Part shown: in pieces, positions 6,163 to 55,565 of the stretch
How the letters are laid out: every line of letters starts with the position of its first letter
Position numbering within the stretch: position 1 is the first letter of the stretch
Origin: a virus
Lineage: Duplodnaviria; Caudoviricetes
Length of the DNA: 64,000 bases
Direction: 5' to 3' (one strand)
IMG/VR virus record: IMGVR_UViG_3300037067_005321
Span: 71,716-135,715 of that record
The notes under the pieces: generated by a model
What the model saw: only the letters and a program-made list of their open reading frames with translations
What the model was told of the DNA's origin: nothing
Database searches by the model: none
Position numbers and translations under genes: made by a program

Positions 6163-7500
6163 ATGGAAAAAGAAAAACAGATAATGCAGAAATTAATAGA
6201 TAATGGTTATCAAGCTTATGTCACAGGTGGTGCTGTGCGTGATATTGTAATGAATAAAACTCCATCGGATTATGACTTGGTTACAAATGCAAGACCTAAT
6301 CAAATTATTGAGTTATTTCAATCACACAAATGTGATTTAGTAGGTCAATCCTTTGGTGTTGTTATTGTGGATAATATTGAGGTAGCTACATTTAGAAAAG
6401 ATAAATACAATGGATTATCAGATAAAGATGTAGTTATTACATATTCAGATACATTAGAAGAGGATTCAGAACGCAGAGATTTCTCTTTTAATTCTCTCTA
6501 TATGGATATTAATGGAAATATTATTGACCCTCAAAATGGATTATCTGATATAAATAATAAAATAGTAAGATTTATTGGTAATCCAGATGATAGAATTTAT
6601 GAAGACCCTAATAGAATTTTACGAGCTATCAGATTTAAAAATCAATTTAACTTCACATATGATTTTCTTACTGAAAATTCTATTATATATAATAGGAATT
6701 TAGTATCAAATATCGCACGTGAACGAATTCGTGTGGAACTACTCAAGTTATTAAAGAATCGAAAATCAAGCGGTTTTTTTGCTGATTTAAGAAGATTTGA
6801 TATATTGAAATATATATTTCCTTCACTTAATAATTGCTATAATATTAAGCATGATAATAAATATCATAGAGAAGATATATTTACTCATTGTCTTAATGTT
6901 GGAGATAGAATATCCTGTAGATATCCATTATTGAAACTGGTAGGCTATTTACATGATGTAGGCAAGGCTGATGCCAAAAAATGGAATTTAGACAGGAATG
7001 AGTTTGCTTTTATTGAACATGAATTGTTAGCATTGCCATTATTAGATAAAGAATTGGAATCATTGAAGTTTTCTACTGATGAAAAAAAGTACATCCTTAA
7101 AATGACTGAGTATCATATGTCAAGTGTATTTGATTCTAAAAAAGAAGGTAAAAAAAGAATAATTAAAAGATTAGGAGAAAATGATATTGATTACAAGGAT
7201 TTAATCAGGTTTAAAATAGCTGATAGACATGGTGCAGAGAATAATAGGAAGAGAAATACTATTAGTGAAATCAAAGAGTTACTTAAACAATTTAAAGTAA
7301 TAATTGACTTCAAAGAACCTTGTTTTAAACGTGATTTGGCTATTAATGGATTTGATGTAATGAATATATTAGATATTAAACCAGGAAAAGATATAGGCAG
7401 AATTTTAAATGAATGTATGGAATTAGTATTACTTCATCCAGAACATAATAACTATGTAGATTTATCTTATTATATTAAGATGAAAGGTCAAAGATTATAA
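6163..7500 (+). CDS. cca: CCA-adding tRNA nucleotidyltransferase / poly(A) polymerase family with HD domain
   Basis: GGAVRD, DYD, EVATFR, RRDF, EDPNRILRAIRF, HD motif LHDVGK, C-terminal LAINGFD...PGKDIG. Confidence 0.93.
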   Translation: MEKEKQIMQKLIDNGYQAYVTGGAVRDIVMNKTPSDYDLVTNARPNQIIELFQSHKCDLVGQSFGVVIVDNIEVATFRKDKYNGLSDKDVVITYSDTLEEDSERRDFSFNSLYMDINGNIIDPQNGLSDINNKIVRFIGNPDDRIYEDPNRILRAIRFKNQFNFTYDFLTENSIIYNRNLVSNIARERIRVELLKLLKNRKSSGFFADLRRFDILKYIFPSLNNCYNIKHDNKYHREDIFTHCLNVGDRISCRYPLLKLVGYLHDVGKADAKKWNLDRNEFAFIEHELLALPLLDKELESLKFSTDEKKYILKMTEYHMSSVFDSKKEGKKRIIKRLGENDIDYKDLIRFKIADRHGAENNRKRNTISEIKELLKQFKVIIDFKEPCFKRDLAINGFDVMNILDIKPGKDIGRILNECMELVLLHPEHNNYVDLSYYIKMKGQRL

Positions 7501-17644: not shown

Positions 17645-18823
17645 ATGTATAAATTTAAAGAAGAAAATATGAAAATACCTGCATTTGTTTGGTCAGATCC
17701 GCCCGACAATAAAGCTATTGAGCAAATAGTAAATATATCATCATTGCCTTTTGCTTTTCACCATGTTGCGATAATGCCTGATTGCCATATGGGATATGGA
17801 ATGCCTATTGGTGGAGTTTTAGCAACTAATGGTGTAATAGTCCCAAATTGTATAGGTGTGGATATTGGGTGTGGTATGACAGCAGTTAAAATATCTTTGT
17901 CTGAAATAGATATTGCTACTCTTAAAAAGATAATGGGTAAAATAAGAGAAGTTATTCCTACTGGATTTGAACATCATAAAGAAAAACAAAATGAAAAATG
18001 GATGCCTAGTTTAAAGGATGTATGTAGGATTACTTATATTGTATTTCAAGAATATAGCAATGCACTTACTCAAATAGGAACTCTGGGTGGAGGAAATCAT
18101 TTCATAGAAATACAAAAAGGATCTGATGGATATATTTATATAATGATTCATTCTGGAAGTAGAAATCTAGGAAAGAAAGTAGCAGATCATTATAATAAAA
18201 TAGCAAAACAATTAAATGAAAGATGGTTTTCCTCTGTTCCTAAAGAATGGGATTTAGCTTTTCTTCCTATTGAAACTAAAGAAGCAAAAGATTATTTTGA
18301 TGAAATGAAATATTGTGTAAATTTTGCTTTTAGAAATAGAGAATTAATGATGTCACGAATATTAGAAATATTTATTGATGAATTTCCTATGGAATTTAAT
18401 CATGATCCTATTATTAATATAGCACATAACTATGCAAGATGGGAAAATCATTATGGTAAAAATATAATTATACATAGAAAAGGAGCAACTTCAGCTAAAG
18501 AAGGAGAAATTGGTATAATTCCAGGCTCACAAGGTTCTAAATCTTATATTGTAGAAGGATTAGGTAATAAAGAATCATTTGAAAGTTGTTCTCATGGTGC
18601 AGGTAGAGCTATGGGGAGAAATGAAGCTACTAAAAAACTTAATTTAGAAGAAGAAATAAAAAAGTTGGATGATCAAGGAATTATTCATGGTATAAGAAAT
18701 ATAAAAGATTTAGACGAAGCTGTTGGAGCTTATAAAGCTATAGACAAAGTTATGGAAAATCAGATGGATCTTGTTAAGATATTAGTGGAACTTTCACCTT
18801 TAGCAGTAATAAAAGGAGATTGA
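17645..18823 (+). CDS. rtcB: RtcB family RNA ligase
   Basis: MPDCH, GVDIGCG, GTLGGGNHFIE, HSGSR, HNY, HRKGA, SHGAGR, DEA-x-AYK. Confidence 0.96.
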   Translation: MYKFKEENMKIPAFVWSDPPDNKAIEQIVNISSLPFAFHHVAIMPDCHMGYGMPIGGVLATNGVIVPNCIGVDIGCGMTAVKISLSEIDIATLKKIMGKIREVIPTGFEHHKEKQNEKWMPSLKDVCRITYIVFQEYSNALTQIGTLGGGNHFIEIQKGSDGYIYIMIHSGSRNLGKKVADHYNKIAKQLNERWFSSVPKEWDLAFLPIETKEAKDYFDEMKYCVNFAFRNRELMMSRILEIFIDEFPMEFNHDPIINIAHNYARWENHYGKNIIIHRKGATSAKEGEIGIIPGSQGSKSYIVEGLGNKESFESCSHGAGRAMGRNEATKKLNLEEEIKKLDDQGIIHGIRNIKDLDEAVGAYKAIDKVMENQMDLVKILVELSPLAVIKGD

Positions 18824-25375: not shown

Positions 25376-26407
25376 ATGCAAATAATAGAAAATAAAAAAC
25401 TAAAAATAATTAAGTCTTATGGATTTAATAGTATATTTGAAAAAAGTAATGGGCATACCCTGATGTGGGGAATTACCACCAAAGACAATATTAATTTCAA
25501 AGATCCTAAAGTAAACTTTTTGCCACTCATACTCGATCTGGAAATAACCACTATTTGTAATGGTCAAAAAAGCGTAAAATGTGGAGCGTGCTATAAAAGC
25601 AATACTTTAAATGGCAAGAATATGTCATTGGAAACATTCAAGAAAATATTCCATAACTTACCTAAAACAATACAACAAATAGCCTTTGGACTGGATGCCT
25701 CCTGTACATCTAATCCAGAAACTTTTGATATTATGCAATATACACGAGATAATGGAATTATCCCCAACTGCACAGTAGCCAATGTTTCACGTGAAACATC
25801 CAAAAAATTGGCTAAGGTGTGTGGGGCTGTAGCAGTGAGCAGGTATACAAATAAGCAAATATGCTACGATAGTATCAAGAGATTACAGGATGCAGGGCTA
25901 TATCAAACAAATATGCATATGCTCGTTCATTCAGACAATTATGTACAAATTATGGAGACACTGAATGATTATGTTAAAGGTGATATAAGGCCTCATGCCA
26001 TAGTTTTATTGTCCCTTAAAAAAGTGGGCAGAGGGTCATCTTTTCAATCTTTATCCCTTGACTTATTCAAAAAGATAGTTAACTTCTCTTTGGAGCAGCA
26101 AGTCCCTATTGGCTTTGACTCCTGTTCAGCTCCTAAATTTGTTGAGGCTATTAAAGACAGACCTGATTATAAAAAGCTCCTTATCTATACAGAACCTTGT
26201 GAATCTACATTGTTAAGTATTTATATTAATGTAGAAGGTAAGATGTTCCCTTGCAGTTTTACTGAGCATATTTATGAAGGTATAGATATTATTAACAATA
26301 AATTTGAGGATGTATGGAACCATAAAACTACTTTAGCATTTAGAAATAAGTTGTTGAGTAATATAGATATTAATGGACAAAGAAATTGTCCAGTATTTGG
26401 AGTGTAA
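25376..26407 (+). CDS. radical SAM enzyme with SPASM/twitch-type C-terminus
   Basis: DLEITTIC-x7-CGACY, MSLETFKKI, GFDSC, PCES...INVEGKMFPCSF, terminal CPVF. Confidence 0.85.
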   Translation: MQIIENKKLKIIKSYGFNSIFEKSNGHTLMWGITTKDNINFKDPKVNFLPLILDLEITTICNGQKSVKCGACYKSNTLNGKNMSLETFKKIFHNLPKTIQQIAFGLDASCTSNPETFDIMQYTRDNGIIPNCTVANVSRETSKKLAKVCGAVAVSRYTNKQICYDSIKRLQDAGLYQTNMHMLVHSDNYVQIMETLNDYVKGDIRPHAIVLLSLKKVGRGSSFQSLSLDLFKKIVNFSLEQQVPIGFDSCSAPKFVEAIKDRPDYKKLLIYTEPCESTLLSIYINVEGKMFPCSFTEHIYEGIDIINNKFEDVWNHKTTLAFRNKLLSNIDINGQRNCPVFGV

Positions 26408-26451
26408 ATATGAAATTAACTATAGATAAAAGGAGAAGTATTTAAAAAATT

Positions 26452-26727
26452 ATGAAAATAAGACAAGGATTTGTAAGTAATAGTTCAAGCAGCTCTTTTG
26501 TTATTAGGAAAGATGATTTATCCCTATTTCAACAAGAGTTAATATATAACCATATAGACGTAGCTCAAACTTATTTTCCATGTATTTATTCTGATAAAAC
26601 AGATGAGTGGAGAATAACAGAAGATAATAAATATATTAGAGGATTTGTTGGCATGGATAATTTTGATATGGGTAGATTCCTTTGTGAAATTGGGATAGAT
26701 CCTAGATTTGTAATATGGGGAGATTAA
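26452..26727 (+). CDS. MKIR-SNSS family protein 1
   Basis: N-terminus MKIRQGFVSNSSSSSF. Confidence 0.85.
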   Translation: MKIRQGFVSNSSSSSFVIRKDDLSLFQQELIYNHIDVAQTYFPCIYSDKTDEWRITEDNKYIRGFVGMDNFDMGRFLCEIGIDPRFVIWGD

Positions 26728-26882
26728 ATTATGAGTATATTAAAAGAATCATGTAGTATTTCCTACTATGAAACCAATAATACCTTTATTAATAATTGTT
26801 GGTATAAATATATTTTTATTAATGATATTTATTCTTTTACAGGAATAAGTATAATAGAAAAAGAATGATATAGGAGAATTAA

Positions 26883-27329
26883 ATGAAAATAAGAAATAGC
26901 TTTGTCAGTAATAGTAGTTCAAGTAGTTTTGTAGTAATAGGAAAATCTAATTACAATGATACTTTAGGTGATGAATATTATCTTGAGGTAGGAAAAGAAG
27001 GAGAAACTCAATTTGATTGGGGGCCAGATGTAATTCATGGAATATATAGTAGAATTAATTTTGCATATCTTCAAGCATATGAATATTCTAATAATGAAGA
27101 ATGGAGAAAAATGCTTGATGAAGTAATTAAAGATAATTCTGAAATAACACATATTGATTGTTTTTTAACTCCAGAATATCATACAAAGGGTAATATATGG
27201 GGATATATAGATCATCAATCTTCAGCAGCAGAAGGAGAAAATATTGAAATATTTAATGATAAAGAAACACTTAGAAGATTTATTTTTGATTCAGATTCAA
27301 AAATAATATTGGATAATGATAATCATTAG
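26883..27329 (+). CDS. MKIR-SNSS family protein 2
   Basis: N-terminus MKIRNSFVSNSSSSSF. Confidence 0.85.
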   Translation: MKIRNSFVSNSSSSSFVVIGKSNYNDTLGDEYYLEVGKEGETQFDWGPDVIHGIYSRINFAYLQAYEYSNNEEWRKMLDEVIKDNSEITHIDCFLTPEYHTKGNIWGYIDHQSSAAEGENIEIFNDKETLRRFIFDSDSKIILDNDNH

Positions 27330-27603
27330 GATGGAATATGAAAAGAATATCTTTTTATGATAGTTATACAAGAGAAGACTTAATAGCATTATTAATTGAT
27401 GCTGAAAATGAAATAGATGATTTAAAAATTGAAATAGATAGAATAGATTATGATAATGATGATTTAAGAGAAACATTAAAAACTAATAAATTAATGACAG
27501 AAACTATAAATGAACATTGTAGAGATTGTGATAATAAATATAGTAATATCAAATGTTTAGAGTGTAAACTTAATCAATTTAAATACTTTTAAGGAGAGTA
27601 AAA

Positions 27604-27960
27604 ATGAAAATTAGAACTAGTTTTGTAAGTAATTCAAGTACTTCTAGTTTTATTTGTGATACTAGAATGACTGAACAGGAAATGTATAATAAGCTGGTAA
27701 AGATTATTGCAGGATATAATCTTATGACTGACAAAGAACTAAAATTAGATGATATAATGTATATTACAGAAGTAAATAAAAAGTATTGGGATACTTATAA
27801 ATGGTGGCTTGGTGCTGAAGAAGAATATGGTAAAGGGTATTACTTCAAAGATTTAAAAGGAAAGAAAGTTATTAATGGTATTGGAGATAATTCTATACCA
27901 TATGAGTTATTTGATATAATAGAAAATGTTTTTGATGCACAGAGACATCATTTTGGATAG
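27604..27960 (+). CDS. MKIR-SNSS family protein 3
   Basis: N-terminus MKIRTSFVSNSSTSSF. Confidence 0.85.
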   Translation: MKIRTSFVSNSSTSSFICDTRMTEQEMYNKLVKIIAGYNLMTDKELKLDDIMYITEVNKKYWDTYKWWLGAEEEYGKGYYFKDLKGKKVINGIGDNSIPYELFDIIENVFDAQRHHFG

Positions 27961-27976
27961 ATGGAAAGGAAAACAG

Positions 27977-28252
27977 ATGAAAATAAGACAAGGATTTGTA
28001 AGTAATAGTAGTTCAAGTAGTTTTGTAATTGGTAAGATGTTTCTTTCATCTAAACAATTATATAAATTGGAAGAATTTATAGATGATAGAGAAAATAATA
28101 AAGGGTTTCAATATGATTCTGATGAGTGCTACCATGATGAAAATTATATACATGAAGGAGAAGACTTCTTCTTTGGTGAAATCTCTAATCATGATAGAGA
28201 GTTCTTTGAATTCCTTAATAATAATAATATAAAATATGAAACAGGTGATTAA
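27977..28252 (+). CDS. MKIR-SNSS family protein 4 (start corrected from 27926)
   Basis: AAGGA RBS then MKIRQGFVSNSSSSSF. Confidence 0.85.
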   Translation: MKIRQGFVSNSSSSSFVIGKMFLSSKQLYKLEEFIDDRENNKGFQYDSDECYHDENYIHEGEDFFFGEISNHDREFFEFLNNNNIKYETGD

Positions 28253-29474: not shown

Positions 29475-30338
29475 ATGATTGTAGGAAGATCTGAGGCAAC
29501 ACCTTATAAACAACAAGATTTCAAAAAGATACTTGAAATGGTTTTACAAGAGATTTTCTTTATTTTTAGAAAGAATTATAATAAAGAATGGTATGAAAAG
29601 ACATTTCATTATATTGATTTAACTTCTGGAGATGCTATATCAAAAAATACTAGTCCACTATTATTTCTGGATAGAATGTCCTATTTAAAAGATACCTTTA
29701 AATATTCTGCAAAATTTGTAGAGAGAAATAAGGATATTTATCCAATATTAAAAAATAATATTGAAAATTTTCTGAAGTATGATTTACAAATAGAAAATTT
29801 AAATGATTATTTAAATCATAATGAATTAAATATTTTAAATGGTAGAAGTAAAGAGATATTAACAAGTTTTATTATTCAAAGCAGATACCAGCCTATAAAA
29901 TATGGACTTATTTATCAAGATTCAAATGGATTTAAAGAGGAAGATTGGTCATTTTTAAATGAATTATCTCAAGGTTTACGATATATGGATATATTATGGA
30001 ATGTTAATATTGATATTATAAAAAGACTTTCACCAGTTGGAATAAATAATAAAAGTACAAAAAGAAATTTAGAATCATTTGAAAAATATCATGGTAAAAA
30101 TATGTCTTTTTATATTAACTCTTTAAAAAAAGAATATAAATATATAAGAAAAAAAATCCATTTTGGTAAAACATATAAATGGGCAATGGTATTTGGAACA
30201 AATTTTGGTGGATATAATAATTATCTCAAAAAAGAATTTTATTTTGTAAACTCTGAAGAAGGAAGAAAATTATTATATTTAATTGATAATGGTAAAAAAG
30301 AAGATTTTATTAATTATAATTTAACAGGAGAAATTTAA
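29475..30338 (+). CDS. TcmP-like (three-Cys-motif partner) Rossmann methyltransferase-like protein
   Basis: YIDLTSGD...SPL, FVE, LIYQDSNG, MDILWN; adjacent to a DUF5131 gene. Confidence 0.65.
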   Translation: MIVGRSEATPYKQQDFKKILEMVLQEIFFIFRKNYNKEWYEKTFHYIDLTSGDAISKNTSPLLFLDRMSYLKDTFKYSAKFVERNKDIYPILKNNIENFLKYDLQIENLNDYLNHNELNILNGRSKEILTSFIIQSRYQPIKYGLIYQDSNGFKEEDWSFLNELSQGLRYMDILWNVNIDIIKRLSPVGINNKSTKRNLESFEKYHGKNMSFYINSLKKEYKYIRKKIHFGKTYKWAMVFGTNFGGYNNYLKKEFYFVNSEEGRKLLYLIDNGKKEDFINYNLTGEI

Positions 30339-31642
30339 TGAATATTAAAGAAATTAAGACAAGTGATCCATTTAAGAGTTTATTTCCAGTTAATGATATA
30401 GTATATACTGCTATATTAGAAAATATGGAGAATAATGGATATGATTATTCACAACCAATTATTATATGGAAAGATAAGAATATAATAATTGATGGTCACA
30501 CGAGACATAGAGTAGCAGTTGAATTAGATCTAAAAGATATTCCTACATTTGAAAAGATATTTAAATCTGAAGAAGATGCATTGCAATATGCAATCCATAA
30601 CCAGCGAGATAGAAGAAATTTAACTGATGACCAGATTATCTCGTGTGTAGATACTGTCAGAGTATGGAGGAAAGATAAATTAGATAATTTAAAACAGAAT
30701 CAACCAGAAACACCGAATCCTGATTTCAGGATTCGACCAAAACTAGAACCATATGAACCTACAGACAATAGAACCTCCCAGAAAATTGCTGATATGATGG
30801 GAGTAAGTAGGGATAAAGTGGATAGGACATTAAAGGTAATAGATAATGCTACTCCTGAACAAATAGAAAGTATAAAAGATGGTAATAAATCTATAAATAA
30901 AGTCTATACAGAAATAAGAGAAGAAGAAATAGCTAAGAAAGAAGAGAGTATTAAGACATTTAATCAAACTAATGATAATATTGAATGGGCAAAATGGACA
31001 TGGAATCCAGTAACAGGCTGTAAGCACGGGTGTCCTTATTGCTATGCTAGAGATATTGCTAATAGATTTTATAAAGAAGGCTTTGAACCAACCTTTCATG
31101 AAGAAAGATTAGAAGCTCCTAAGAGTACTAAAATTCCTAAAAGTAGAGTTGATGAAGTTGGAATAACTAATGTGTTTGTATGTTCTATGGCTGATTTATT
31201 TGGTGAATGGGTACCTATTGAATGGATTGAAAAAGTATTTAAAAGTATAGAGGAAAATCCAGATTGGAATTTTATTCTTCTTACTAAGAATCCTAAAAGA
31301 TATCTTGAATTAGATATACCAGATAATTGTTGGATTGGTGCTACTGCTGATATACAAGAAAGAACAGATGAAGCTATTAAAGTTTTTACACAATTAAAAA
31401 ACAATGGTATAAAAAATACATTATTTTTATCTTGTGAACCATTAAGTGAAAATATAATTAATATTGATTCAAATATTGATTGGTTAATTATAGGAGGAAG
31501 AAGTAAATGCTCTAATATGTCAGAAGCACAACCAGAATGGAAATGGGTAGAAAATCTATTAAATCAAGCAAGAGAAGCAAATATACCAATTTATTTTAAA
31601 CCTAATCTAACTGTTAGACCCAAAGAATATCCAGAGGTATAA
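30338..31642 (+). CDS. ParB-N domain fused to DUF5131 (Gp37/Gp68-family radical SAM-like) domain
   Basis: IIDGHTR, NQRDRRNL, HTH, then TWNPVTGCKHGCPYCYA, CSMADLF, LTKNP, SCEPL, WLIIGG. Confidence 0.9.
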   Translation: MNIKEIKTSDPFKSLFPVNDIVYTAILENMENNGYDYSQPIIIWKDKNIIIDGHTRHRVAVELDLKDIPTFEKIFKSEEDALQYAIHNQRDRRNLTDDQIISCVDTVRVWRKDKLDNLKQNQPETPNPDFRIRPKLEPYEPTDNRTSQKIADMMGVSRDKVDRTLKVIDNATPEQIESIKDGNKSINKVYTEIREEEIAKKEESIKTFNQTNDNIEWAKWTWNPVTGCKHGCPYCYARDIANRFYKEGFEPTFHEERLEAPKSTKIPKSRVDEVGITNVFVCSMADLFGEWVPIEWIEKVFKSIEENPDWNFILLTKNPKRYLELDIPDNCWIGATADIQERTDEAIKVFTQLKNNGIKNTLFLSCEPLSENIINIDSNIDWLIIGGRSKCSNMSEAQPEWKWVENLLNQAREANIPIYFKPNLTVRPKEYPEV

Positions 31643-34641: not shown

Positions 34642-37044
34642 TTGATAACATGCTCCCGTTGTAACTGTTATAAAAATCAATATAACATAAATTGTGTCTC
34701 TTATTCTGGAAATCCTAATGCTACTTATTACTTTCTTGGGGAAATGGCGGGAAAAGTTGAGGCTGAGGAAAGTGTAGGAAAGGAGTCTGATCATTCTGCT
34801 AAGAAACATTTCCTTAATCGTGCTGGTGAGATTCTTGAGTATTTACTAGGACTTATAGAGTTTAAAAGAGAAGATATTGCTATTGCTAATTCATCAAGAT
34901 GCTGGAAAGAAGGAAATAAGAAACCTACTAATGTAGAACTTAATTCCTGTTTTCCTCACTTAATGAAGGAATTATCTGAGATAAAACCGAAGTTAGTAAT
35001 AGCAATGGGCGATGTGGCATTATATCAATCTACTGGATTAGATCATATAACTACTTACCATGGTAAACTTCTTTGGAGTGATAAGATAAATTGTTTGGTA
35101 TATCCAATCTACCATCCTATGGCAGTTGGATATGACCCTTCTAAGAAAGAGGATCTTATTGCAGATTTTAAACGTATTCCTACTTTGTTAGGAGAGAAAC
35201 CATTTGAGATAAAGCATTATCTTTACAAAGTAATAGATACTAAAGAGAAGTTTGATAGTATATTTGATGAGTTAAACAATTCAGAATTCTTATATTTTGA
35301 TATAGAAACTACTGGATTAGATGCTTTCAAAGATGAGATAGTTATAATGCAAATAGGCACAGGGAAAGAGCCTATATACATATTCCCATTTAACTTTGCA
35401 AAACAAATACAACCGGAATTAAAAAGTATTATAGAAAAGTCTAAGATTATAGGACAGGACTTTAAATTTGATGTCAAGTTTATATATAATAAATTAAATA
35501 TATTTCCTGAGAATTGGTATCATGATACTTGTCTGGCTGAATATCTTCTTACTGGAATGAAAGATAATGACCTAGATGCATTGACAGATAAGTATGTGCC
35601 TGAGTCATCTGGATATTCTAAAGAAGTTAATGAGATAGGTGGTGCTCATTTAGTAAAGGATGATAATCTATTATATCAATATGCTTCTGATGATATTGGT
35701 GTATTACCTAAAATAGAAAAGAATCAGATAAAAGAAATATATAAAAGAGATATTGAGTTCCTATTCAGAGATATTACCATGCAGAATAATAAAGTTTTAG
35801 CTGATATGGAACTTAATGGAGTTAGAATTGATTTAGACAGATTGTGGGAACTTGATGCAGTATATGAAAAGAAAGCACAGAAAGTGCTTAATAAAGCATT
35901 ATTATTACCAGAAGTGCAACAGACAGAAAGAGATTTAAATCAAAGGTTTAAGCCTAAAAGTGCAGTACATTTAAAGCATTTATTATATGATGTATATCAA
36001 TTACCTATATTAAAGAAGACTAAAAAAGGTGGTGTTTCTACTGATAAAGAGCTAATGAAGATCTATTCAGAAGCTCCATATAAGAATAAATATTGTGCTA
36101 TCATGGAGCAGTATAGATCCTATGAGAATATACGAAGTACATTTCTCTCTGGAGTAATACCACAATTAGATGGTGATATAGCACATACTACTTATTCATT
36201 ACATGCTACTACAACAGGGAGGCCGGTTAGTAAAAATCCAAATCTTCTTAATTTACCAACTAAAGAGAAGGAAATAAAAGAGATATATATTCCCAGAGAT
36301 GGATATGTATTTCTATATTTTGATTTAAAAGCAATAGAGATGAGAGTTGCTTCTGTAATATATTGGGACGATGTATTAATAAATATATGTAATTCTGGAT
36401 GGGATATACATACTCAGACAGCAGTAGAGATACTTGGTGGTGATTATGAATCATTACAATCATTATATGAATTAAAAGATCATGATGCTACTATGAAAAG
36501 AAGGGTAGCCAAGACAATCAATTTTGGAATTATTTATGGTCAAGGAGCACATGGTCTAGCGGAAGAATTAAATATTAAAGAATCAGTAGCAGAAGAATAT
36601 ATCTATAATTATTTCCTTAGATTTAAAGGACTTAAAAAAGGTATAGATGATATTCAAAAATTTGCCATTGACAAGGGTTATGTAGAGACTTATTTTGGAT
36701 TGAGAAGATATTGGAAAGATCACACAGTAGAAAACTTAAATATGTTGCGTGAGGCGCAGAATACCCCTGTGCAAGGAACAGCTTGGCAATTATCTCAATT
36801 AATTCAAATAGGTAGTAGGAATTTTGTGAAGAAGTATAATTTTGATGCCAAGATGGTAATTCAGATGTACGATGCAGTAGTTATCGAGTGTAGAGAAAAA
36901 GATATAATAGATATAGCACCAGAGATTATTAATATAGTAGAGAATGTGAATAAACCATTTCCTATACTGAATGAGGTTAAAATAAAAGCAGATATAGAAA
37001 TAGGTAGAAAGAACATGGCTAAATTAGAGGAGATAAAAAAATGA
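34642..37044 (+). CDS. polA: family A DNA polymerase with N-terminal family-4 UDG-like domain and 3'-5' exonuclease
   Basis: CxxC, GEMAG, YHP (UDG); DIETTG, KFD, YASDD (exo); TGR, DLKAIEMR, AKTINFGIIYG, QGTA, YDA (pol). Confidence 0.93.
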   Translation: MITCSRCNCYKNQYNINCVSYSGNPNATYYFLGEMAGKVEAEESVGKESDHSAKKHFLNRAGEILEYLLGLIEFKREDIAIANSSRCWKEGNKKPTNVELNSCFPHLMKELSEIKPKLVIAMGDVALYQSTGLDHITTYHGKLLWSDKINCLVYPIYHPMAVGYDPSKKEDLIADFKRIPTLLGEKPFEIKHYLYKVIDTKEKFDSIFDELNNSEFLYFDIETTGLDAFKDEIVIMQIGTGKEPIYIFPFNFAKQIQPELKSIIEKSKIIGQDFKFDVKFIYNKLNIFPENWYHDTCLAEYLLTGMKDNDLDALTDKYVPESSGYSKEVNEIGGAHLVKDDNLLYQYASDDIGVLPKIEKNQIKEIYKRDIEFLFRDITMQNNKVLADMELNGVRIDLDRLWELDAVYEKKAQKVLNKALLLPEVQQTERDLNQRFKPKSAVHLKHLLYDVYQLPILKKTKKGGVSTDKELMKIYSEAPYKNKYCAIMEQYRSYENIRSTFLSGVIPQLDGDIAHTTYSLHATTTGRPVSKNPNLLNLPTKEKEIKEIYIPRDGYVFLYFDLKAIEMRVASVIYWDDVLINICNSGWDIHTQTAVEILGGDYESLQSLYELKDHDATMKRRVAKTINFGIIYGQGAHGLAEELNIKESVAEEYIYNYFLRFKGLKKGIDDIQKFAIDKGYVETYFGLRRYWKDHTVENLNMLREAQNTPVQGTAWQLSQLIQIGSRNFVKKYNFDAKMVIQMYDAVVIECREKDIIDIAPEIINIVENVNKPFPILNEVKIKADIEIGRKNMAKLEEIKK

Positions 37045-47718: not shown

Positions 47719-48090
47719 ATGAGTAAAAAATTACTTTTTAGTGTAACTAAGAAGGATTTAGTTATAAATTATTTCTCTGGTACTGGAAATGGTGGCTCAA
47801 ACAGAAATAAAACTCAGGTGTGCGTGAGGCTTTCCCATCCAGAATCTGGAGCTTCTGTAACTGGTCAATCTTATAGAGAAAGACCAGCTAATATTAGAGA
47901 GGCACTAAATAATTTAGTTAAACATCCCAAATTTAAATTATGGCAAGCTAAGAAAGTATATGAAATTCAGCAGGGTAAAACAATAGAACAAGTTGTAGAT
48001 GATTTATTAAAGCCTAATAATTTAAAGATAGAATGTAAAGATGAAGATAATAAATGGATAGAGTGTAAGGAGATAAAGGATGAAAATTAG
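47719..48090 (+). CDS. peptide chain release factor (RF-1 domain)-like protein with GGS instead of GGQ
   Basis: DL.I.YFSGTGNGGSNRNKT..CVRLSHPESG...N...AL. Confidence 0.8.
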   Translation: MSKKLLFSVTKKDLVINYFSGTGNGGSNRNKTQVCVRLSHPESGASVTGQSYRERPANIREALNNLVKHPKFKLWQAKKVYEIQQGKTIEQVVDDLLKPNNLKIECKDEDNKWIECKEIKDEN

Positions 48091-48448
48091 GACAGGATTT
48101 GTATCAAATAGTAGTTCTTCAAGTTTTGTTATTTCAGTTCCTAAGAACAAGAAACTGGATAAGATAAAACTAGAACTTGAAGTTAATTTGGAAAATTATA
48201 TAGAAGAAAGAATAGATTGTGAGTCTGAATTAAAGAAATATCTGGAAGGTTATTATAGTCCCTCTTATAAAGAAGATTACCCGGAAATATACCAAGAGTA
48301 TTTAGCAGAAATTAATAAAGGTAATACTATTCTAGTAGGATCTTTTTCATCAGATGGTGATCCTATAGAAATGTTTTTGTGTGAAAGAGGTATAAATGGA
48401 TTATCACCAGAAGATATTAATGTTATGGAAGGAGATGGAGGATATTAA
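48080..48448 (+). CDS. MKIR-SNSS family protein 5
   Basis: N-terminus MKIRTGFVSNSSSSSF. Confidence 0.85.
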   Translation: MKIRTGFVSNSSSSSFVISVPKNKKLDKIKLELEVNLENYIEERIDCESELKKYLEGYYSPSYKEDYPEIYQEYLAEINKGNTILVGSFSSDGDPIEMFLCERGINGLSPEDINVMEGDGGY

Positions 48449-48449
48449 T

Positions 48450-48794
48450 ATGAAGATTAGAACAAGTTTTGTTAGTAATTCAAGTAGCACAAGTTTTTGT
48501 ATTTTTGGTAGAGATTTTGATTTAGATATTATAAGAGAAAAGTTTATGAATGAAGAAGAATATGAAGATGATATATCTGAAATTTTAGAGGATAAGTTAG
48601 AAGGATCTGGAATATCTTTTGATTCTATAGATTATGAGTATAATGTAACTATGGGATATAGTGTATCTCAGCTAGATAAAACTAAAAAATTAGAAGATAT
48701 TGCTATAGAAGTAGCAGATAAATTAACTAAAATAGGATTGGATACTAAACCAGAAGAAGTTAATTTTATTCATGATGGTGGATATAACGGATGA
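48450..48794 (+). CDS. MKIR-SNSS family protein 6 (start corrected from 48396)
   Basis: GGAGGA RBS then MKIRTSFVSNSSSTSF. Confidence 0.85.
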   Translation: MKIRTSFVSNSSSTSFCIFGRDFDLDIIREKFMNEEEYEDDISEILEDKLEGSGISFDSIDYEYNVTMGYSVSQLDKTKKLEDIAIEVADKLTKIGLDTKPEEVNFIHDGGYNG

Positions 48795-51700
48795 TTAATC
48801 TCTTAGAAATAAAAGCCAAGAACTTTAAATCTTGGAAAGAACTTGAACTTACTGATTTAAATACTAAAGGATTGTGTCTTATATCAGCAGAAAATGGGGC
48901 AGGAAAGTGTATAGAAAAAGATAGTTATCTTTATCATAACTCATCTTTATGTGCAATAACCTCTCTATCTGATTCTTGGAATTTTGATGGATTTAAGCCA
49001 TCAAACTTAAATATTTCTACATCTAATGGTATAAATGTAGAAACCTCAGATGTGTATACTACTACTGTTGATTCTATAAGTAGAATAAAAACTGATAGTG
49101 GATATAGTCTAGGGGCATCGTCTACACATAAAATTCTTTGTATAGATAAAGATGGTAACTTCTCTTTTAAAAAAATGGAAGAGCTAAATATAGGAGATTA
49201 TGTATGTATTGATAGGAAGCAAAATCTATTTCCTATAGATTATCCTAATATTAATTTTACTTATTTTTATGAAAAAAAGCTTCATAAACAACTATATTTT
49301 GAGATACCAAAATATCTAAATGAGGATTTATCTAGATTGTTAGGATATTATATAGCTAATGGATCTTATGATAAACAACATGATAGAGTCACTATATGTA
49401 CTAATAATAAAGTATTAGTTAATGATATAGAGTGTATAGCTAATAAACTTAATATTTCTTTTAGAATATATGCTAAAGATAATATAAGTTTGGGTGGAAC
49501 TGCTTTTGCAAGATTTTTTAAATATTTACTAGATGATAATTGTTCTACAGCTAGAACTAAAACTATTCCATCCATAATTCTAAAAGCTCCTAAAACCTGC
49601 CAGATAGAATTTTTGAAAGCGTTGATTGATAGTGATGGTTACTATTCTAAAAATGGGGCAACATTAGAATATTATTCAGCAAGCTATGAATTAATAAAAA
49701 TAGTACATTTAATGTTATTAAACTTTGGAATAATATCGAGATTACATTTTAAGGATCATGCCAAAGTTGGGGATAAAGTTTATATTCATAATTATAATAT
49801 AATATCAATACATGGCAAAAATATAGATTTATATTTTGATAAGATAGGTTCATTATATTATATAAAAATAGATAAAAATAGAAATCCTAACAAAGATATT
49901 ATTCCCTATATTAAAAATATAATAGATAACGAAATATTTAATATTAAAAAGAAACTGGGAGTTGATAAATGCGGAAGATATATTAAAGATAATAAAAGAT
50001 TTGTATTTTTTAATACTTCGATAATAAAATCTGTTGCTATAGATATAACCTATGAAAAATTATTATCTTTCTACAATTTTATTATAGAAAATAATAATAT
50101 TAAAGTGTTATTTAGTGATGAATTTTTAATATTAGTTAATAATATATTAACTTCTAGTTTTTATTTTGATAAAATAATTGAGAAAAATACTATTAATGAG
50201 ACAATACAAGTATATGATGTATCTATTCCAGAATATCATACATTTTATGCTAATGGTTTTATTAATCATAATTCTTCAGTTAGAAATATTATAGAATATC
50301 TTCTTCTTGATGATACCGCTGAAGGAATAGATGTAAAAGACTTGATATTTAATTCAGATTCTGAATGTGAAATCTATGGTAAGTTTGACAAAGATGGTGA
50401 TTTAGTAGAGATAACTAAGTATAGAAATCATAAGAAATATGGAAATTCTACTATACTTTCAATTAATGGAGATACATCTAAAACAAAAACTGATAGAAGA
50501 GAAACACAAAAAGCAATAGAAGAAGTATTAGGAATAACTAAAGATTCAGTATATGTTTCTACAATATTCTCTACTAATTCACCTTCTTTTGTAGAGGCAA
50601 AAGAGGGTGATAGAAAGAAGATAGTATATGATGCTCAGGATTTAGGTAGATATAATACTTATCTAGATAAAGTTAAAACTAAGATATCCAATATAGAATC
50701 AGAAATTAGTTCTATAGATAATAAATTATCTAATAAAAGAGAAAATATTGGTAATATAGAACATAAATTACTTGATATAGACATAAATCTTATATCATAT
50801 AAAGATATTCAGAAGAATAAGATTAAGAAGTTAGAAGATGAGAGAGATAATCTTTCAAAAGAAGAATATATTTCTTTTATAAATAAAATAAAAATCCTTA
50901 ATGAATATAAGGACTTTGCTGAATTCAAGATTTTTTCAGAATCTTTATATGAAAATATAAATAAATTATTATCAGAAAGAAATATTCTAAAAGAGGTGAA
51001 TTTTGAGGATATAAAATATGAATTAGATCTACTTAATAATATGACTTTTGGTGAAGTAGAAGATTTAACAGAAAAATACAATTATATTAATGAGTTACAA
51101 AAGAATATAAATAATATTGATTATGAAATAAAAGATTTAAATAAGAAATTAAAAGAATCTGATTTAGGAATATGTCCAATATTAAAAAGTGAATGTCAGA
51201 CATTATTAGATAAAAAGAACAAAGCAATAGAATTATATCAACCACAAATAGATGCTGCTGTAAAAGAAAAAGAAATAAAAATAGAATCTCTGAAAGAAAA
51301 AGAGGAAACATATAGTATATTAAGCAAAAAGAATAAAGAAATAGAAAATAGTAAAATAGATAAAGATAAGAAGATAGTAGAATTAACTAATAAAATCAAT
51401 ATTATAAAGAATAATAATTCAACCCTGGATCAGAGAAAAAAGTTAATAGATGATAAAATTCAATTACTTATAAACAATGAGATAGATAAATTAAAGAATG
51501 AAATAAAGATAATAGAAAATAATAATAAGAATATAGAGATAAGAAAAGTACAGATAGAAGAAGAAATAGAAAAGATATTGAATGAGAAAAATCCATATAT
51601 AAATATTAAAAAAGATCTTGACAAAGAATATAAAGAGATTAAATTAGATATAGAAAATAAAGAAAAAGAACTTGATAAACTAAAAGATGAATTAAGATAT

Positions 51701-52171
51701 TATGAATTTTGGAAAGTAGGATTTAGTAAAAAAGGCATACCTAATTTAAAAATAGAAGGATTCCTTGAAGCATTAGAAATAGAAACTAATAAGATATTAT
51801 CAGAAGTGGAAAGTAATACTTATGTTACTATAGAATCTGGAGAGGATAAGATACTATACAAAGTTCATTCTAATAATGGTAGTATGGTAACTAACTTTAA
51901 ATCCTTTTCAGGCGGCGAAAAACAGAGGATAAAGATAGCAGATATGTTTGCTTTTAATACCCTACTTGGTAAGTTTAATTTTATCATAGCAGACGAAGCA
52001 TTAGAAGGATCACTTGACAGCACTGGTAAAAGTAATGTTCTCAATTTACTAAGAAATAAGTTAAAAGAAATAAGTAATATATTTGTTATTTCTCACAGTG
52101 AACAAATTAAAGATTCATTTAATAATGTGATTAATATAGAAAAAGAGAATGGAGTAAGTAGGATATGCTAG
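48791..52171 (+). CDS. sbcC: SbcC/Rad50-like ATPase containing an intein
   Basis: KNFKS, NGAGK|SS, coiled coil, CPILKSEC hook-like segment, SFSGGEKQR, IADE, ISH. Confidence 0.92.
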   Translation: MINLLEIKAKNFKSWKELELTDLNTKGLCLISAENGAGKCIEKDSYLYHNSSLCAITSLSDSWNFDGFKPSNLNISTSNGINVETSDVYTTTVDSISRIKTDSGYSLGASSTHKILCIDKDGNFSFKKMEELNIGDYVCIDRKQNLFPIDYPNINFTYFYEKKLHKQLYFEIPKYLNEDLSRLLGYYIANGSYDKQHDRVTICTNNKVLVNDIECIANKLNISFRIYAKDNISLGGTAFARFFKYLLDDNCSTARTKTIPSIILKAPKTCQIEFLKALIDSDGYYSKNGATLEYYSASYELIKIVHLMLLNFGIISRLHFKDHAKVGDKVYIHNYNIISIHGKNIDLYFDKIGSLYYIKIDKNRNPNKDIIPYIKNIIDNEIFNIKKKLGVDKCGRYIKDNKRFVFFNTSIIKSVAIDITYEKLLSFYNFIIENNNIKVLFSDEFLILVNNILTSSFYFDKIIEKNTINETIQVYDVSIPEYHTFYANGFINHNSSVRNIIEYLLLDDTAEGIDVKDLIFNSDSECEIYGKFDKDGDLVEITKYRNHKKYGNSTILSINGDTSKTKTDRRETQKAIEEVLGITKDSVYVSTIFSTNSPSFVEAKEGDRKKIVYDAQDLGRYNTYLDKVKTKISNIESEISSIDNKLSNKRENIGNIEHKLLDIDINLISYKDIQKNKIKKLEDERDNLSKEEYISFINKIKILNEYKDFAEFKIFSESLYENINKLLSERNILKEVNFEDIKYELDLLNNMTFGEVEDLTEKYNYINELQKNINNIDYEIKDLNKKLKESDLGICPILKSECQTLLDKKNKAIELYQPQIDAAVKEKEIKIESLKEKEETYSILSKKNKEIENSKIDKDKKIVELTNKINIIKNNNSTLDQRKKLIDDKIQLLINNEIDKLKNEIKIIENNNKNIEIRKVQIEEEIEKILNEKNPYINIKKDLDKEYKEIKLDIENKEKELDKLKDELRYYEFWKVGFSKKGIPNLKIEGFLEALEIETNKILSEVESNTYVTIESGEDKILYKVHSNNGSMVTNFKSFSGGEKQRIKIADMFAFNTLLGKFNFIIADEALEGSLDSTGKSNVLNLLRNKLKEISNIFVISHSEQIKDSFNNVINIEKENGVSRIC
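48908..50272 (+). mobile_element. LAGLIDADG intein (455 aa) in the SbcC Walker A motif
   Basis: starts CIEKDS, LLGYYIANG, FLKALIDSDG, ends VYDVSI...FINHN, followed by Ser. Confidence 0.93.
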
Positions 52172-55079: not shown

Positions 55080-55565
55080 ATGAATCAATATGATAAATAT
55101 GATATAAGGAATATAACTGAGAAAAGAACTGCTGCCCCTTCGTCTATAAGTTGTGGGGTCACTTGGGTCGATGGACGTATCATCTTTCATAAAGATAAAA
55201 ATATAAATAAGCAAGGAGCTTGGATATATGGTATATGCCATTTTTCAAATGGTATATTTCTTATTACTCCAAGAGATCATGTAATTCCAACTACTTTAAC
55301 AACTATATTAGTTTCACCATTTGACAATTATTGCCAACGTGCTTATAGTTGTTTAGATTTTGATTGTAAATTAAATAAGTTTAATAGAGATATATTTGAA
55401 ACAGAGATTGGTGATTTTGCTAAAGAATTTCCATTTATTAATAAGGAAAAACCTTTCTGGTTTAATAGTCTTAAATGGAAAAATGATATGTGGGCTAAGA
55501 AAAAACTTCCAATTAACGGAGGAGTATTAAAATTTGATGCAAACAAAGAAACGAATAAAAGTTAG
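55080..55565 (+). CDS. hypothetical protein
   Basis: 161-aa ORF. Confidence 0.6.
   Translation: MNQYDKYDIRNITEKRTAAPSSISCGVTWVDGRIIFHKDKNINKQGAWIYGICHFSNGIFLITPRDHVIPTTLTTILVSPFDNYCQRAYSCLDFDCKLNKFNRDIFETEIGDFAKEFPFINKEKPFWFNSLKWKNDMWAKKKLPINGGVLKFDANKETNKS

What the first reader, a model, noticed from the sequence alone, without database searches (positions are those of the whole stretch)
25376..28252. Radical SAM enzyme followed by proteins sharing the 16-residue N-terminus MKIRx[GS]FVSNSS[ST][ST]SF
Seen: four genes (26452, 26883, 27604, 27977) downstream of a radical SAM/SPASM-twitch gene share this N-terminus, then diverge completely into acidic 75-130 aa bodies. The codons differ between copies, so the motif is conserved at protein level rather than by recent DNA duplication. 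Known: SPASM/twitch radical SAM enzymes mostly modify peptides or proteins (RiPP maturases; anaerobic sulfatase maturases oxidising Ser/Cys). Inference: a phage post-translational modification system in which a Ser-rich N-terminal tag is the enzyme's substrate or docking site and the variable bodies are cargo/effectors. Alternatively the motif is a self-processing or assembly strand. I know of no functional description.
Basis: partly seen in the sequence, partly recalled or inferred. Interest (0 to 1): 0.88.

Follow-up and report, generated by a model that had tools for sequence, protein, structure and literature searches.

The report
Phage radical-SAM enzyme with tagged substrate proteins
A phage radical SAM enzyme travels almost everywhere with arrays of small acidic proteins that all start with the same 18 residues, which points to an undescribed virus-encoded protein-modification system with many substrates.

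Summary
The 135.7-kb phage genome has six ORFs, not four, that begin MKIRx[GS]FVSNSS[ST][ST]SF[VIC][VIC]. Four lie directly after the radical SAM (rSAM) gene and two lie between the Mre11- and Rad50-like genes. Ser codons switch between AGY and TCN, so selection acts on the protein.

The link to the enzyme holds across viral metagenomes. Of 76 loci picked by the tag family, 47 carry this rSAM clade within 10 kb. Of 80 loci picked by the rSAM, 58 (strict motif) to 73 (loose motif) carry tagged ORFs, 181 downstream against 12 upstream, up to 13 in a row. No third gene family co-occurs. In near-complete contigs where the partner was not adjacent, it was found elsewhere in the contig (4 of 4). A distant cellular version (25-27% rSAM identity) keeps the same pair.

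The tag always sits at the extreme N-terminus (438 of 465 on ATG, the rest on GTG/TTG or Met-Ala). It is nearly invariant and is modelled as a floppy arm. The bodies fall into 108 sequence clusters and 94% are acidic. The enzyme model is closest to the peptide maturases SuiB and SkfB, then anSME.

Best reading: the rSAM modifies the N-terminal arm. The chemistry is unknown and no biochemical evidence exists.

The parts
25376..26407 (+). Radical SAM enzyme (343 aa). It has an N-terminal four-strand domain, a C-x7-C-x2-C SAM cluster site (C61, C69, C72) and one auxiliary-cluster site (C250, C275, C293, C338), so it is twitch-like. It belongs to phrog_7293.
   Evidence: PHROG E 2.8e-88 and SPASM 22.2 bits. 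Invariant Cys in a 41-sequence alignment. AF2 pLDDT 95.5. Best structural matches: SuiB Z 24.1, SkfB Z 21.7, anSMEcpe Z 19.4.
26452..26727 (+). Tagged protein 1 (91 aa, MKIRQGFVSNSSSSSFVI...). It starts 45 nt after the rSAM stop.
   Evidence: It joins the largest body cluster.
26883..27329 (+). Tagged protein 2 (148 aa, MKIRNSFVSNSSSSSFVV...).
   Evidence: phrog_7397 matches the N-terminus only.
27338..27592 (+). Untagged 84-aa ORF inside the array, coiled-coil-like with a C-terminal CxxC...CxxC. Whether it belongs to the system is uncertain.
   Evidence: No family hit. No homolog in the 158 related loci.
27604..27960 (+). Tagged protein 3 (118 aa, MKIRTSFVSNSSTSSFIC...).
27977..28252 (+). Tagged protein 4 (91 aa, MKIRQGFVSNSSSSSFVI...). 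The true start is taken as 27977, not 27926.
   Evidence: phrog_7397 E 5e-6 over residues 1-72.
48080..48448 (+). Tagged protein 5 (122 aa), 20 kb from the rSAM, between the Mre11-like and Rad50-like genes. It is a member of the large ~120-aa body family.
   Evidence: In the AF2 model (pLDDT 88.9), residues 1-10 have pLDDT 52.
48450..48794 (+). Tagged protein 6 (114 aa, MKIRTSFVSNSSSTSFCI...). It starts 2 nt after copy 5 ends.

Best explanation
This is a two-component, virus-borne post-translational modification system. One radical SAM enzyme, twitch/SPASM type and built like the peptide maturases SuiB and SkfB, acts on a whole set of small acidic proteins. Each of these proteins carries the same 18-residue N-terminal arm, M-K-[ITV]-R-x-G-F-V-S-N-S-S-[ST]-[ST]-S-F-[IV]-[IV].

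The last residues of the arm (F16 and the two aliphatic residues) anchor it to the folded body. The first ~15 residues are free and can thread into the enzyme's buried active site. The small conserved N-terminal beta domain of the enzyme probably holds the arm. The 5'-deoxyadenosyl radical then abstracts a hydrogen from the invariant F-V-S-N-S-S core, and the single auxiliary cluster takes the electron.

The variable bodies (108 sequence clusters, 94% acidic, no known domain) are the functional cargo. They are most likely early or middle host-takeover or counter-defence proteins that need the modified arm.

Shown: the tag, its fixed N-terminal position, protein-level selection, the synteny and genome-level co-occurrence, and the enzyme's fold class.

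Inferred: that the arm is the substrate, and the chemistry. My ranking for the chemistry is an oxidative cross-link from Phe7 or Phe16 to a Ser or Asn beta-carbon, roughly level with anSME/BtrN-like oxidation of a Ser to formylglycine, then epimerisation. The role of the bodies is also inferred.
For: 1. Forward synteny. Of 76 IMG/VR loci fetched by similarity to tagged copy 5, which is itself not next to the rSAM, 47 hold a 33-48% identical homolog of the window rSAM within 10 kb. Of the 14 other window genes tested as queries, only the Rad50-like gene matched, in a single locus.

2. Reverse synteny. Of 80 loci fetched with an rSAM profile, 58 hold at least one strict tagged ORF and 73 hold the loose core. 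There are 181 copies downstream against 12 upstream, on the same strand, up to 13 in a row, and the nearest copy often starts 12-600 nt after the rSAM stop.

3. No third partner. Clustering 6,064 ORFs from 158 loci (121 non-redundant groups) puts the rSAM in 99 groups and tagged proteins in 104. The next family is in only 11.

4. Whole-contig checks. Where the partner was not within 10 kb, it was found elsewhere in all four contigs that are at least 90% complete. Klebsiella phage Miro has the rSAM at 91 kb and two tagged ORFs at 67.6 and 71.5 kb. Vibrio phage D479 has five tagged copies.

5. An independent lineage. Four GC-rich cellular MAG contigs keep one tagged gene whose stop overlaps a candidate ATG start of an rSAM only 25-27% identical to the window enzyme.

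6. The tag. Of 465 distinct ORFs, 438 have ATG exactly six codons before F7; the rest have GTG/TTG or Met-Ala, and none is internal. Conservation is about 4 bits per position at 14 of the first 16 residues and collapses after residue 18. Ser codons switch between AGY and TCN.

7. Structure. In the model of a tagged protein, residues 1-10 have pLDDT 52, against 82 for residues 11-20 and 89-98 through residue 120. The rSAM model has pLDDT 95.5. Its best matches are SuiB bound to its precursor peptide (Z 24.1, 312 residues aligned, from model residue 4), SkfB (Z 21.7) and anSMEcpe (Z 19.4).

8. The rSAM's N-terminal ~45 residues are among its most conserved parts, which matches the invariance of the tag.
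Against: There is no direct evidence of binding or modification.

Mutual information between tag variants and rSAM alignment columns did not exceed shuffled controls.

Two window copies, and the copies in Miro, lie about 20 kb from the enzyme, so adjacency is not obligatory.

Some contigs lack one partner, but all of these are 9-85% complete.

The tag matches no known rSAM substrate motif.

The within-genome sameness of tag positions 3, 5 and 6 (z 6.5-10) could reflect duplication or gene conversion rather than co-adaptation with the enzyme.
Confidence: 0.65

Rival explanations
1. Docking-tag or adaptor model. The invariant arm only anchors each protein to the rSAM, an F-box-like logic. The variable bodies recruit different host or phage molecules that the enzyme modifies, or they regulate the enzyme. 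The arm itself is not changed.
For: The same synteny and co-occurrence data fit this model. One enzyme faces up to 13 different bodies. The enzyme's N-terminal domain is conserved and could be a pure docking site.
Against: rSAM active sites are buried and take flexible peptides or small molecules, as in the closest structures SuiB, SkfB and anSME. A docking peptide would not need nine invariant polar residues (S9-S15) and a fixed position at residue 1. No candidate third-party substrate gene co-occurs.
Confidence: 0.12
2. The tag works independently of the rSAM. It could be a self-assembly or steric-zipper strand, an N-terminal degron or protease signal, or a packaging signal like the capsid-targeting sequence of T4 internal proteins. 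The two gene families would merely travel together in a mobile early-gene cassette.
For: The Ser/Asn-rich FVSNSSSSSF[IV][IV] resembles zipper-forming segments (inference). T4 internal proteins are a precedent for one N-terminal tag on diverse bodies (established knowledge). Two window copies sit away from the enzyme.
Against: This does not explain why only this rSAM clade, out of all neighbouring genes, is kept beside or within the same genome across 121 non-redundant loci and in a 25%-identical cellular lineage. The genes lie in the replication and nucleotide-metabolism module, not the structural module. No prohead-protease-type cleavage motif is seen.
Confidence: 0.1
3. RiPP with an N-terminal core. 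The modified 16-18-residue arm is cut off and is itself the active product. The body then serves only as a follower or recognition domain, as in bottromycin precursors.
For: The invariant part is exactly the N-terminal peptide. The enzyme resembles RiPP maturases.
Against: No protease or exporter co-occurs. The bodies are folded (pLDDT ~90) and under selection. About 1,057 cluster representatives match at E <= 1e-10. The bodies are diversified into 108 clusters, which would be pointless for a mere follower.
Confidence: 0.05

Closest known systems
SuiB/StrB (streptide Lys-Trp cross-linking rSAM) and SkfB (sactipeptide thioether synthase, twitch type)
   Same: These are the best structural matches over the whole chain, including the N-terminal region (Z 24.1 and 21.7). 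They share the rSAM core plus a C-terminal auxiliary-cluster domain. SkfB is also the best sequence-level rSAM match among solved structures (E 8e-4). The substrate genes lie next to the enzyme gene.
   Different: Identity is only 12-17%. The window enzyme has a four-strand N-terminal domain with no winged-helix helices in the model. It has one auxiliary cluster where SuiB has two. The tag has no Cys and no Trp. The substrates are 90-250-aa folded proteins, up to 13 per genome, and the system is in viruses.
Anaerobic sulfatase-maturating enzymes (anSMEcpe, AtsB)
   Same: An rSAM that acts on a protein rather than a small peptide and oxidises a Ser or Cys side chain. The structural match is Z 19.4 over residues 49-343. 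The target here is Ser-rich.
   Different: anSME has two auxiliary clusters and recognises (C/S)-x-(P/A)-x-R inside sulfatases (established knowledge). The tag lacks that motif. It is at the extreme N-terminus, and the bodies are not sulfatases (0 of 107 have any Pfam hit).
One-enzyme, many-precursor RiPP systems (ProcM with about 30 prochlorosin precursors)
   Same: The logic is the same: a highly conserved N-terminal recognition segment, hypervariable remainder, many paralogous substrate genes and a single maturase (established knowledge).
   Different: There the leader is removed and the variable core is what gets modified. Here the only invariant, and probably modified, part is the N-terminal segment itself, and the variable part is a folded domain.
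Capsid-targeting sequence of T4 internal proteins (IPI-III, Alt)
   Same: A short shared N-terminal tag on otherwise unrelated phage proteins in hypervariable loci (established knowledge).
   Different: The T4 tag is phage-specific, is cleaved by the prohead protease, and is not linked to an rSAM. This tag is invariant across very different phages and across cellular islands.
PHROG families phrog_7397 (tagged proteins) and phrog_7293 (rSAM)
   Same: The window proteins match them: 7293 at E 2.8e-88, and 7397 through the tag. Of 107 diverse tagged proteins, 64 hit 7397.
   Different: Both families are annotated 'unknown function'. The link between them is not recorded there, and it was not found in the literature searched.

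Membership tests
Radical SAM superfamily | Three-Cys motif (CX3CX2C or a variant) for the SAM-binding [4Fe-4S] cluster after the first core strand | tested here: met
   C61, C69 and C72 are invariant in 41 sequences. The window has C-x7-C-x2-C; many relatives have C-x3-C-x2-C in the same columns. Pfam PF04055 does not reach E 0.1 for the window protein, but it scores 51.5 bits on the cellular relative.
Radical SAM superfamily | Partial TIM-barrel core fold | tested here: met
   The AF2 model (pLDDT 95.5) aligns to many solved rSAM enzymes at Z 13-24.
SPASM subfamily (two auxiliary clusters) | Seven or eight conserved C-terminal Cys that bind two auxiliary [4Fe-4S] clusters | tested here: not met
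   Only four further Cys are invariant (C250, C275, C293, C338). PF13186 scores 22.2 bits against a cut-off of 21.5. NF033640 (twitch) gives a weak partial hit.
Twitch-type rSAM (one auxiliary cluster; BtrN, SkfB) | A shortened C-terminal domain with ligands for a single auxiliary cluster | tested here: met
   Four invariant Cys. SkfB Z 21.7 and BtrN Z 15.6. SkfB and BtrN are the best sequence-level rSAM matches among solved structures. Cluster content itself cannot be tested here.
RiPP maturase with RRE (SuiB, SkfB, CteB) | N-terminal winged-helix RiPP recognition element that binds the leader peptide | tested here: inconclusive
   Model residues 1-31 form four beta strands with no helices. 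The alignments to SuiB and SkfB start at model residues 4-8, but the domain was not searched alone and no RRE model was run.
RiPP biosynthetic cluster | Short precursor peptide plus leader protease and/or exporter | tested here: not met
   The substrates are 90-250-aa proteins with a confidently folded body. No third family co-occurs in more than 11 of 121 locus groups.
Anaerobic sulfatase-maturating enzyme | Substrate motif (C/S)-x-(P/A)-x-R in a sulfatase | tested here: not met
   The tag is MKIRxGFVSNSSSSSF[IV][IV]. None of 107 bodies hits any Pfam family.
Glycyl-radical-enzyme activase and its substrate | R-V-x-G-[FYW] glycyl radical motif near the C-terminus of a large enzyme, and an activase without an auxiliary domain | tested here: not met
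   The tag has R4-x-G6-F7, one residue shorter, at the N-terminus. G6 is replaced by S, T or D in whole genomes, including three window copies. The enzyme has an auxiliary-cluster domain.
phrog_7293 / phrog_7397 | HMM match | tested here: met
   E 2.8e-88 for the rSAM. E 5e-6 to 0.02 for the four adjacent tagged proteins, mostly over the tag. 64 of 107 relatives match.

The most novel reading that the evidence does not exclude
Viruses encode a class of ribosomally made, radical-SAM-modified proteins rather than peptides. A universal N-terminal arm receives a chemical modification (a cross-link, aldehyde or D-residue) that arms or stabilises a fast-diversifying arsenal of acidic effector domains used against the host, for example against its defences. 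The rare cellular version sits beside an Avs-like STAND NTPase on mobile islands. This suggests the same module is used on both sides of the phage-host conflict.
Probability: 0.35. Interest if true: 0.92.

Novelty: new variant of a known kind. Interest (0 to 1): 0.82.

Why it matters
If the enzyme modifies the arm, this would be a large viral protein-modification system with no description in the literature searched. A profile search of 1.84 billion cluster representatives gave 1,057 matches at E <= 1e-10 and up to 18,775 at E <= 1e-3. The system occurs in T4-like Klebsiella, Enterobacter and Cronobacter phages, in jumbo phages, and in many uncultivated phages.

It would give a new radical SAM reaction on a Ser/Asn/Phe motif. 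It would also give a sequence tag that marks dozens of unknown phage effector families per genome, and a handle (the single enzyme gene) for switching all of them off at once in genetically tractable phages such as Miro, KP15 and KP27. It could also supply an enzyme-and-tag pair for protein engineering.

Tried and rejected
- **Fold of the tagged body.** Foldseek found no PDB or BFVD match with E <= 0.001. The wide VIA search gave best Z 4.2 over 44 residues. ESM Atlas neighbours are all viral 'hypothetical' proteins. The fold therefore stays unassigned, which does not show that it is new.
- **Known domains in the bodies.** None of 107 diverse members hit Pfam at E <= 1e-3. PADLOC gave nothing for the window proteins. 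A search for longer fused forms found none, which is weak evidence.
- **tblastn of copy 2 against 50,697 phage records.** It found nothing, although Miro and D479 do carry tagged ORFs. The low-complexity filter probably masks the tag, so that blank means little.
- **Co-variation between tag positions 3 or 6 and rSAM alignment columns.** It was not above shuffled controls.
- **Literature.** No paper holds the motif string, and none describes this rSAM clade with its partners. The rSAM of thymidine hypermodification (M6 gp53) is a spore-photoproduct-lyase-like enzyme and a different family. The Campylobacter and Fusobacterium phage rSAM reports are annotation only.
- **Earlier findings of this scan.** Nothing was found.
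- **Glycyl-radical motif, Sec/Tat/lipoprotein signal and the sulfatase motif.** All rejected by inspection of the tag.
- **Promoter and terminator scan.** Not above chance.
- **Profile search of the rSAM against PDB sequences.** The top hits were spurious designed PPR repeats, followed by SkfB and BtrN.
Full report
**What is in the window**

The window is the second half of a 135,715-bp phage genome with 27% GC. About 120 bp at the end of the record repeat its start, so the genome is probably complete. All genes read on the + strand.

The region is the replication and nucleic-acid-metabolism module. It holds a tRNA nucleotidyltransferase, RtcB, an SNF2 helicase, a Pol I with an N-terminal UDG domain, a primase-helicase, Mre11- and Rad50-like genes, a clamp loader and a UvsX-like recombinase.

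ORF 25376-26407 is a 343-aa radical SAM (rSAM) enzyme. It matches phrog_7293 at E 2.8e-88 and Pfam SPASM at 22.2 bits.

Four ORFs follow it at 26452, 26883, 27604 and 27977, each beginning MKIRx[GS]FVSNSS[ST][ST]SF. A six-frame scan shows two more copies at 48080 and 48450, between the Mre11-like and Rad50-like genes, and no others in the genome.

The six tag-coding stretches share only 29-43 of 48 nt. Their Ser codons jump between AGY and TCN. Five copies have a GGAG box upstream and the 27977 copy has a purine-rich GGAAAGG site. The shared sequence is therefore kept by selection on the protein, not by recent DNA duplication.

The bodies are acidic and are barely alignable pairwise (best BLAST E 0.005).

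**How big the family is**

A profile of the six copies plus eight metagenomic relatives was searched against 1.84 billion cluster representatives. It matched 18,775 proteins at E <= 1e-3 and 1,057 at E <= 1e-10. The lower-scoring part may include Ser-rich noise, so 18,775 is an upper bound.

IMG/VR gave at least 597 pattern matches. In 185,579 prokaryote species genomes there were only 52 pattern matches, all on MAG contigs. ESM Atlas neighbours of both the tagged protein and the enzyme are almost all viral.

Across 465 distinct tagged ORFs collected from the fetched loci, the motif is always at the very start. In 438 the ATG lies exactly six codons before F7. The rest use GTG or TTG there, or have Met-Ala.

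Residue frequencies among 447 distinct ORFs are M97 K97 [I59 T11 V10] R99 x G91 F99 V95 S99 N100 S100 S100 S88 S81 S99 F94 [IV][IV] (percent). Information content collapses after residue 18. Positions 7-16 were partly fixed by the search pattern; positions 1-6 and 17 onward were not.

Median length is 130 aa, and 94% of bodies have pI below 6, with a median of 4.56. The bodies fall into 108 sequence clusters. None of 107 representatives hits Pfam, and 64 hit phrog_7397, a family of unknown function.

**The link to the enzyme**

- **Forward.** 76 IMG/VR loci were chosen by similarity to copy 5, which in this phage is not next to the enzyme. Of these, 47 have a 33-48% identical rSAM homolog within 10 kb. 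Of 14 other window genes used as queries, only the Rad50-like gene matched, in a single locus.
- **Reverse.** Of 80 loci chosen with an rSAM profile, 58 have a strict tagged ORF and 73 have the loose core motif. There are 181 copies downstream against 12 upstream, all on the enzyme's strand, up to 13 in a row. The nearest copy often starts 12-600 nt after the enzyme's stop.
- **No third partner.** Clustering all 6,064 + strand ORFs of 158 loci (121 non-redundant groups) puts the enzyme in 99 groups and tagged proteins in 104. The next most frequent family is in 11.
- **Whole contigs.** Where the partner was missing within 10 kb, whole-contig searches found it in every contig that is at least 90% complete: 3 of 3 for the missing enzyme and 1 of 1 for the missing tag. 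The contigs that still lack a partner are 9-85% complete.
- **Cultured phages.** Klebsiella phage Miro has the enzyme at 91 kb and two tagged ORFs at 67.6 and 71.5 kb. Vibrio phage D479 has five tagged ORFs. The enzyme clade is present in 172 deposited phage genomes, mostly T4-like Klebsiella, Enterobacter, Cronobacter and Citrobacter phages.

**An independent cellular lineage**

Four GC-rich MAG contigs keep a single tagged gene (MKIRSGFVSNSSSTSFLI, 137 aa). One is a 1.47-Mb Acidobacteriota contig; the others are from Terriglobales, Bryobacterales and Verrucomicrobia.

In L180 the tagged gene's stop overlaps a candidate ATG start (10408) of an rSAM only 25-27% identical to the window enzyme; the longest ORF starts further upstream at a TTG. 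That rSAM has a canonical CX3CX2C motif and scores 51.5 bits on PF04055.

Upstream lie a 128-aa ORF and a 959-aa SMEK_N plus NACHT/STAND NTPase that resembles Avs2 (PADLOC E 2e-23). In L180 the block is flanked by tyrosine recombinases and an ArdC-N protein.

Each of these genomes has one tagged gene. This enzyme type was found in 1 of 301 genomes sampled from that phylum, the query genome itself. The pair therefore persists as a unit at very low enzyme identity and outside phages.

**Structures**

The enzyme model is confident (pLDDT 95.5). It shows a four-strand N-terminal sheet (residues 1-31), the rSAM core and a C-terminal cluster domain.

In a 41-sequence alignment the invariant Cys are C61, C69 and C72, plus C250, C275, C293 and C338. 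That gives one auxiliary cluster, which is twitch-like. The N-terminal ~45 residues are among the best conserved parts.

The best structural matches are:
- SuiB bound to its precursor peptide: Z 24.1, 312 residues, from model residue 4.
- SkfB: Z 21.7.
- anSMEcpe: Z 19.4, from residue 49.
- Then viperins, PqqE, ChlB, CteB, TigE, EpeE and BtrN.

So the enzyme looks like a peptide- or protein-modifying maturase.

The model of tagged copy 5, built from 147 aligned sequences, has pLDDT 88.9. Residues 1-10 score only 52 and residues 11-20 score 82. The body is a small alpha/beta domain with no convincing match in PDB or BFVD. Apart from three nearly invariant body positions (G81, G104, I116), the invariant residues of the ~120-aa family are all in the tag.

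**Interpretation**

The simplest reading is enzyme and substrates. A free, invariant N-terminal arm on many different folded bodies is threaded into one rSAM maturase. The fixed position at residue 1 fits the need to thread a terminus of a folded protein into a buried active site.

The chemistry cannot be decided here. The fully Cys-ligated auxiliary cluster suits oxidative reactions. Two such reactions are a cross-link from Phe7 or Phe16 to a Ser or Asn beta-carbon, as in cyclophane-forming maturases, and dehydrogenation of a Ser to formylglycine, as in anSME or BtrN. These comparisons rest on established knowledge of those families, not on tests here. No spare invariant Cys is available as the hydrogen donor used by the epimerase EpeE, which lowers that option.

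The bodies are acidic, hypervariable, multi-copy and encoded among early or middle genes. They look like host-takeover or counter-defence proteins, but that is inference only.

Tag positions 3, 5 and 6 are more alike within a genome than between genomes (z 8.4, 10.3 and 6.5). This could reflect adaptation to the genome's own enzyme or simple paralogy. A direct co-variation test was null.

**Rivals**

- The arm is only a docking peptide, and the bodies are adaptors or regulators.
- The arm has an enzyme-independent role (assembly strand, degron or packaging signal), and the genes merely travel together.
- The arm is cut off as a RiPP.

None is excluded, but each explains less of the evidence. 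That evidence is the nine invariant polar residues, the strict N-terminal position, the exclusive two-gene co-occurrence, and the absence of any protease, exporter or third partner.

**Novelty**

Both families are 'unknown function' in PHROGs. I found no paper containing the motif or describing the partnership. The logic resembles RiPP systems that pair one maturase with many precursors. The differences are that the conserved and probably modified part is the N-terminal arm itself, the variable part is a folded protein, and the system is essentially viral. I rate it a new variant of a known kind, of high interest, with the modification itself still to be shown.

Noticed in passing
L180:6736-11502 (also L172, L177, L170): This is a cellular four-gene cassette on a mobile island. 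It holds a SMEK_N plus NACHT/STAND NTPase (Avs2-like), a 128-aa ORF, one tagged protein and a distant rSAM relative. In L180 tyrosine recombinases and an ArdC-N protein flank it. The cassette is conserved at 40-75% identity between Acidobacteriota and Verrucomicrobia MAGs.
   Followed up: partly
window 47719-48090: A 123-aa protein with an RF-1 domain, which looks like an ArfB-type peptidyl-tRNA hydrolase, lies immediately before tagged copy 5. tblastn with this protein gave 4 hits among the 80 rSAM-selected loci.
   Followed up: no
window 48791-52171 and 55534-57099: The Rad50/SbcC-like ATPase carries an intein with a LAGLIDADG endonuclease inserted right after its P-loop (PF14890 E 5.5e-20, PF14528 E 7.3e-18). 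A second Hint/intein plus LAGLIDADG element sits in ORF 55534-57099.
   Followed up: partly
window 30338-31642: This is a fusion of a ParB-like N-terminal domain with DUF5131 (PF07505, E 1.6e-41). It carries a CxxxCxxC radical-SAM-like motif, so it is a second possible Fe-S/rSAM protein 2 kb downstream of the tagged array.
   Followed up: no
window 34642-37044: DNA polymerase I is fused to an N-terminal family-4 uracil-DNA-glycosylase-like domain (TIGR00758, E 5e-25).
   Followed up: no
window 6163-7500 and 17645-18823: A tRNA nucleotidyltransferase and an RtcB RNA ligase suggest a tRNA-repair module.
   Followed up: no
L168 (JALNZI010000003.1, 135,678 bp): This contig is binned as a Candidatus Omnitrophota MAG. 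It has nearly the same length as this phage genome and carries the rSAM plus 11 tagged ORFs within 20 kb. It is probably a related phage rather than bacterial DNA.
   Followed up: partly
L108:10001-17500: This 461-kb jumbo-phage contig has 13 tagged ORFs in one uninterrupted run after the rSAM, the largest array seen.
   Followed up: no
P0030 (230 aa, metagenomic): This is one open reading frame with two tagged units in tandem. The second begins at an in-frame GTG (VKVRSGFVSNSSSSSF), so it is either a fused form or two genes with no stop between them.
   Followed up: no
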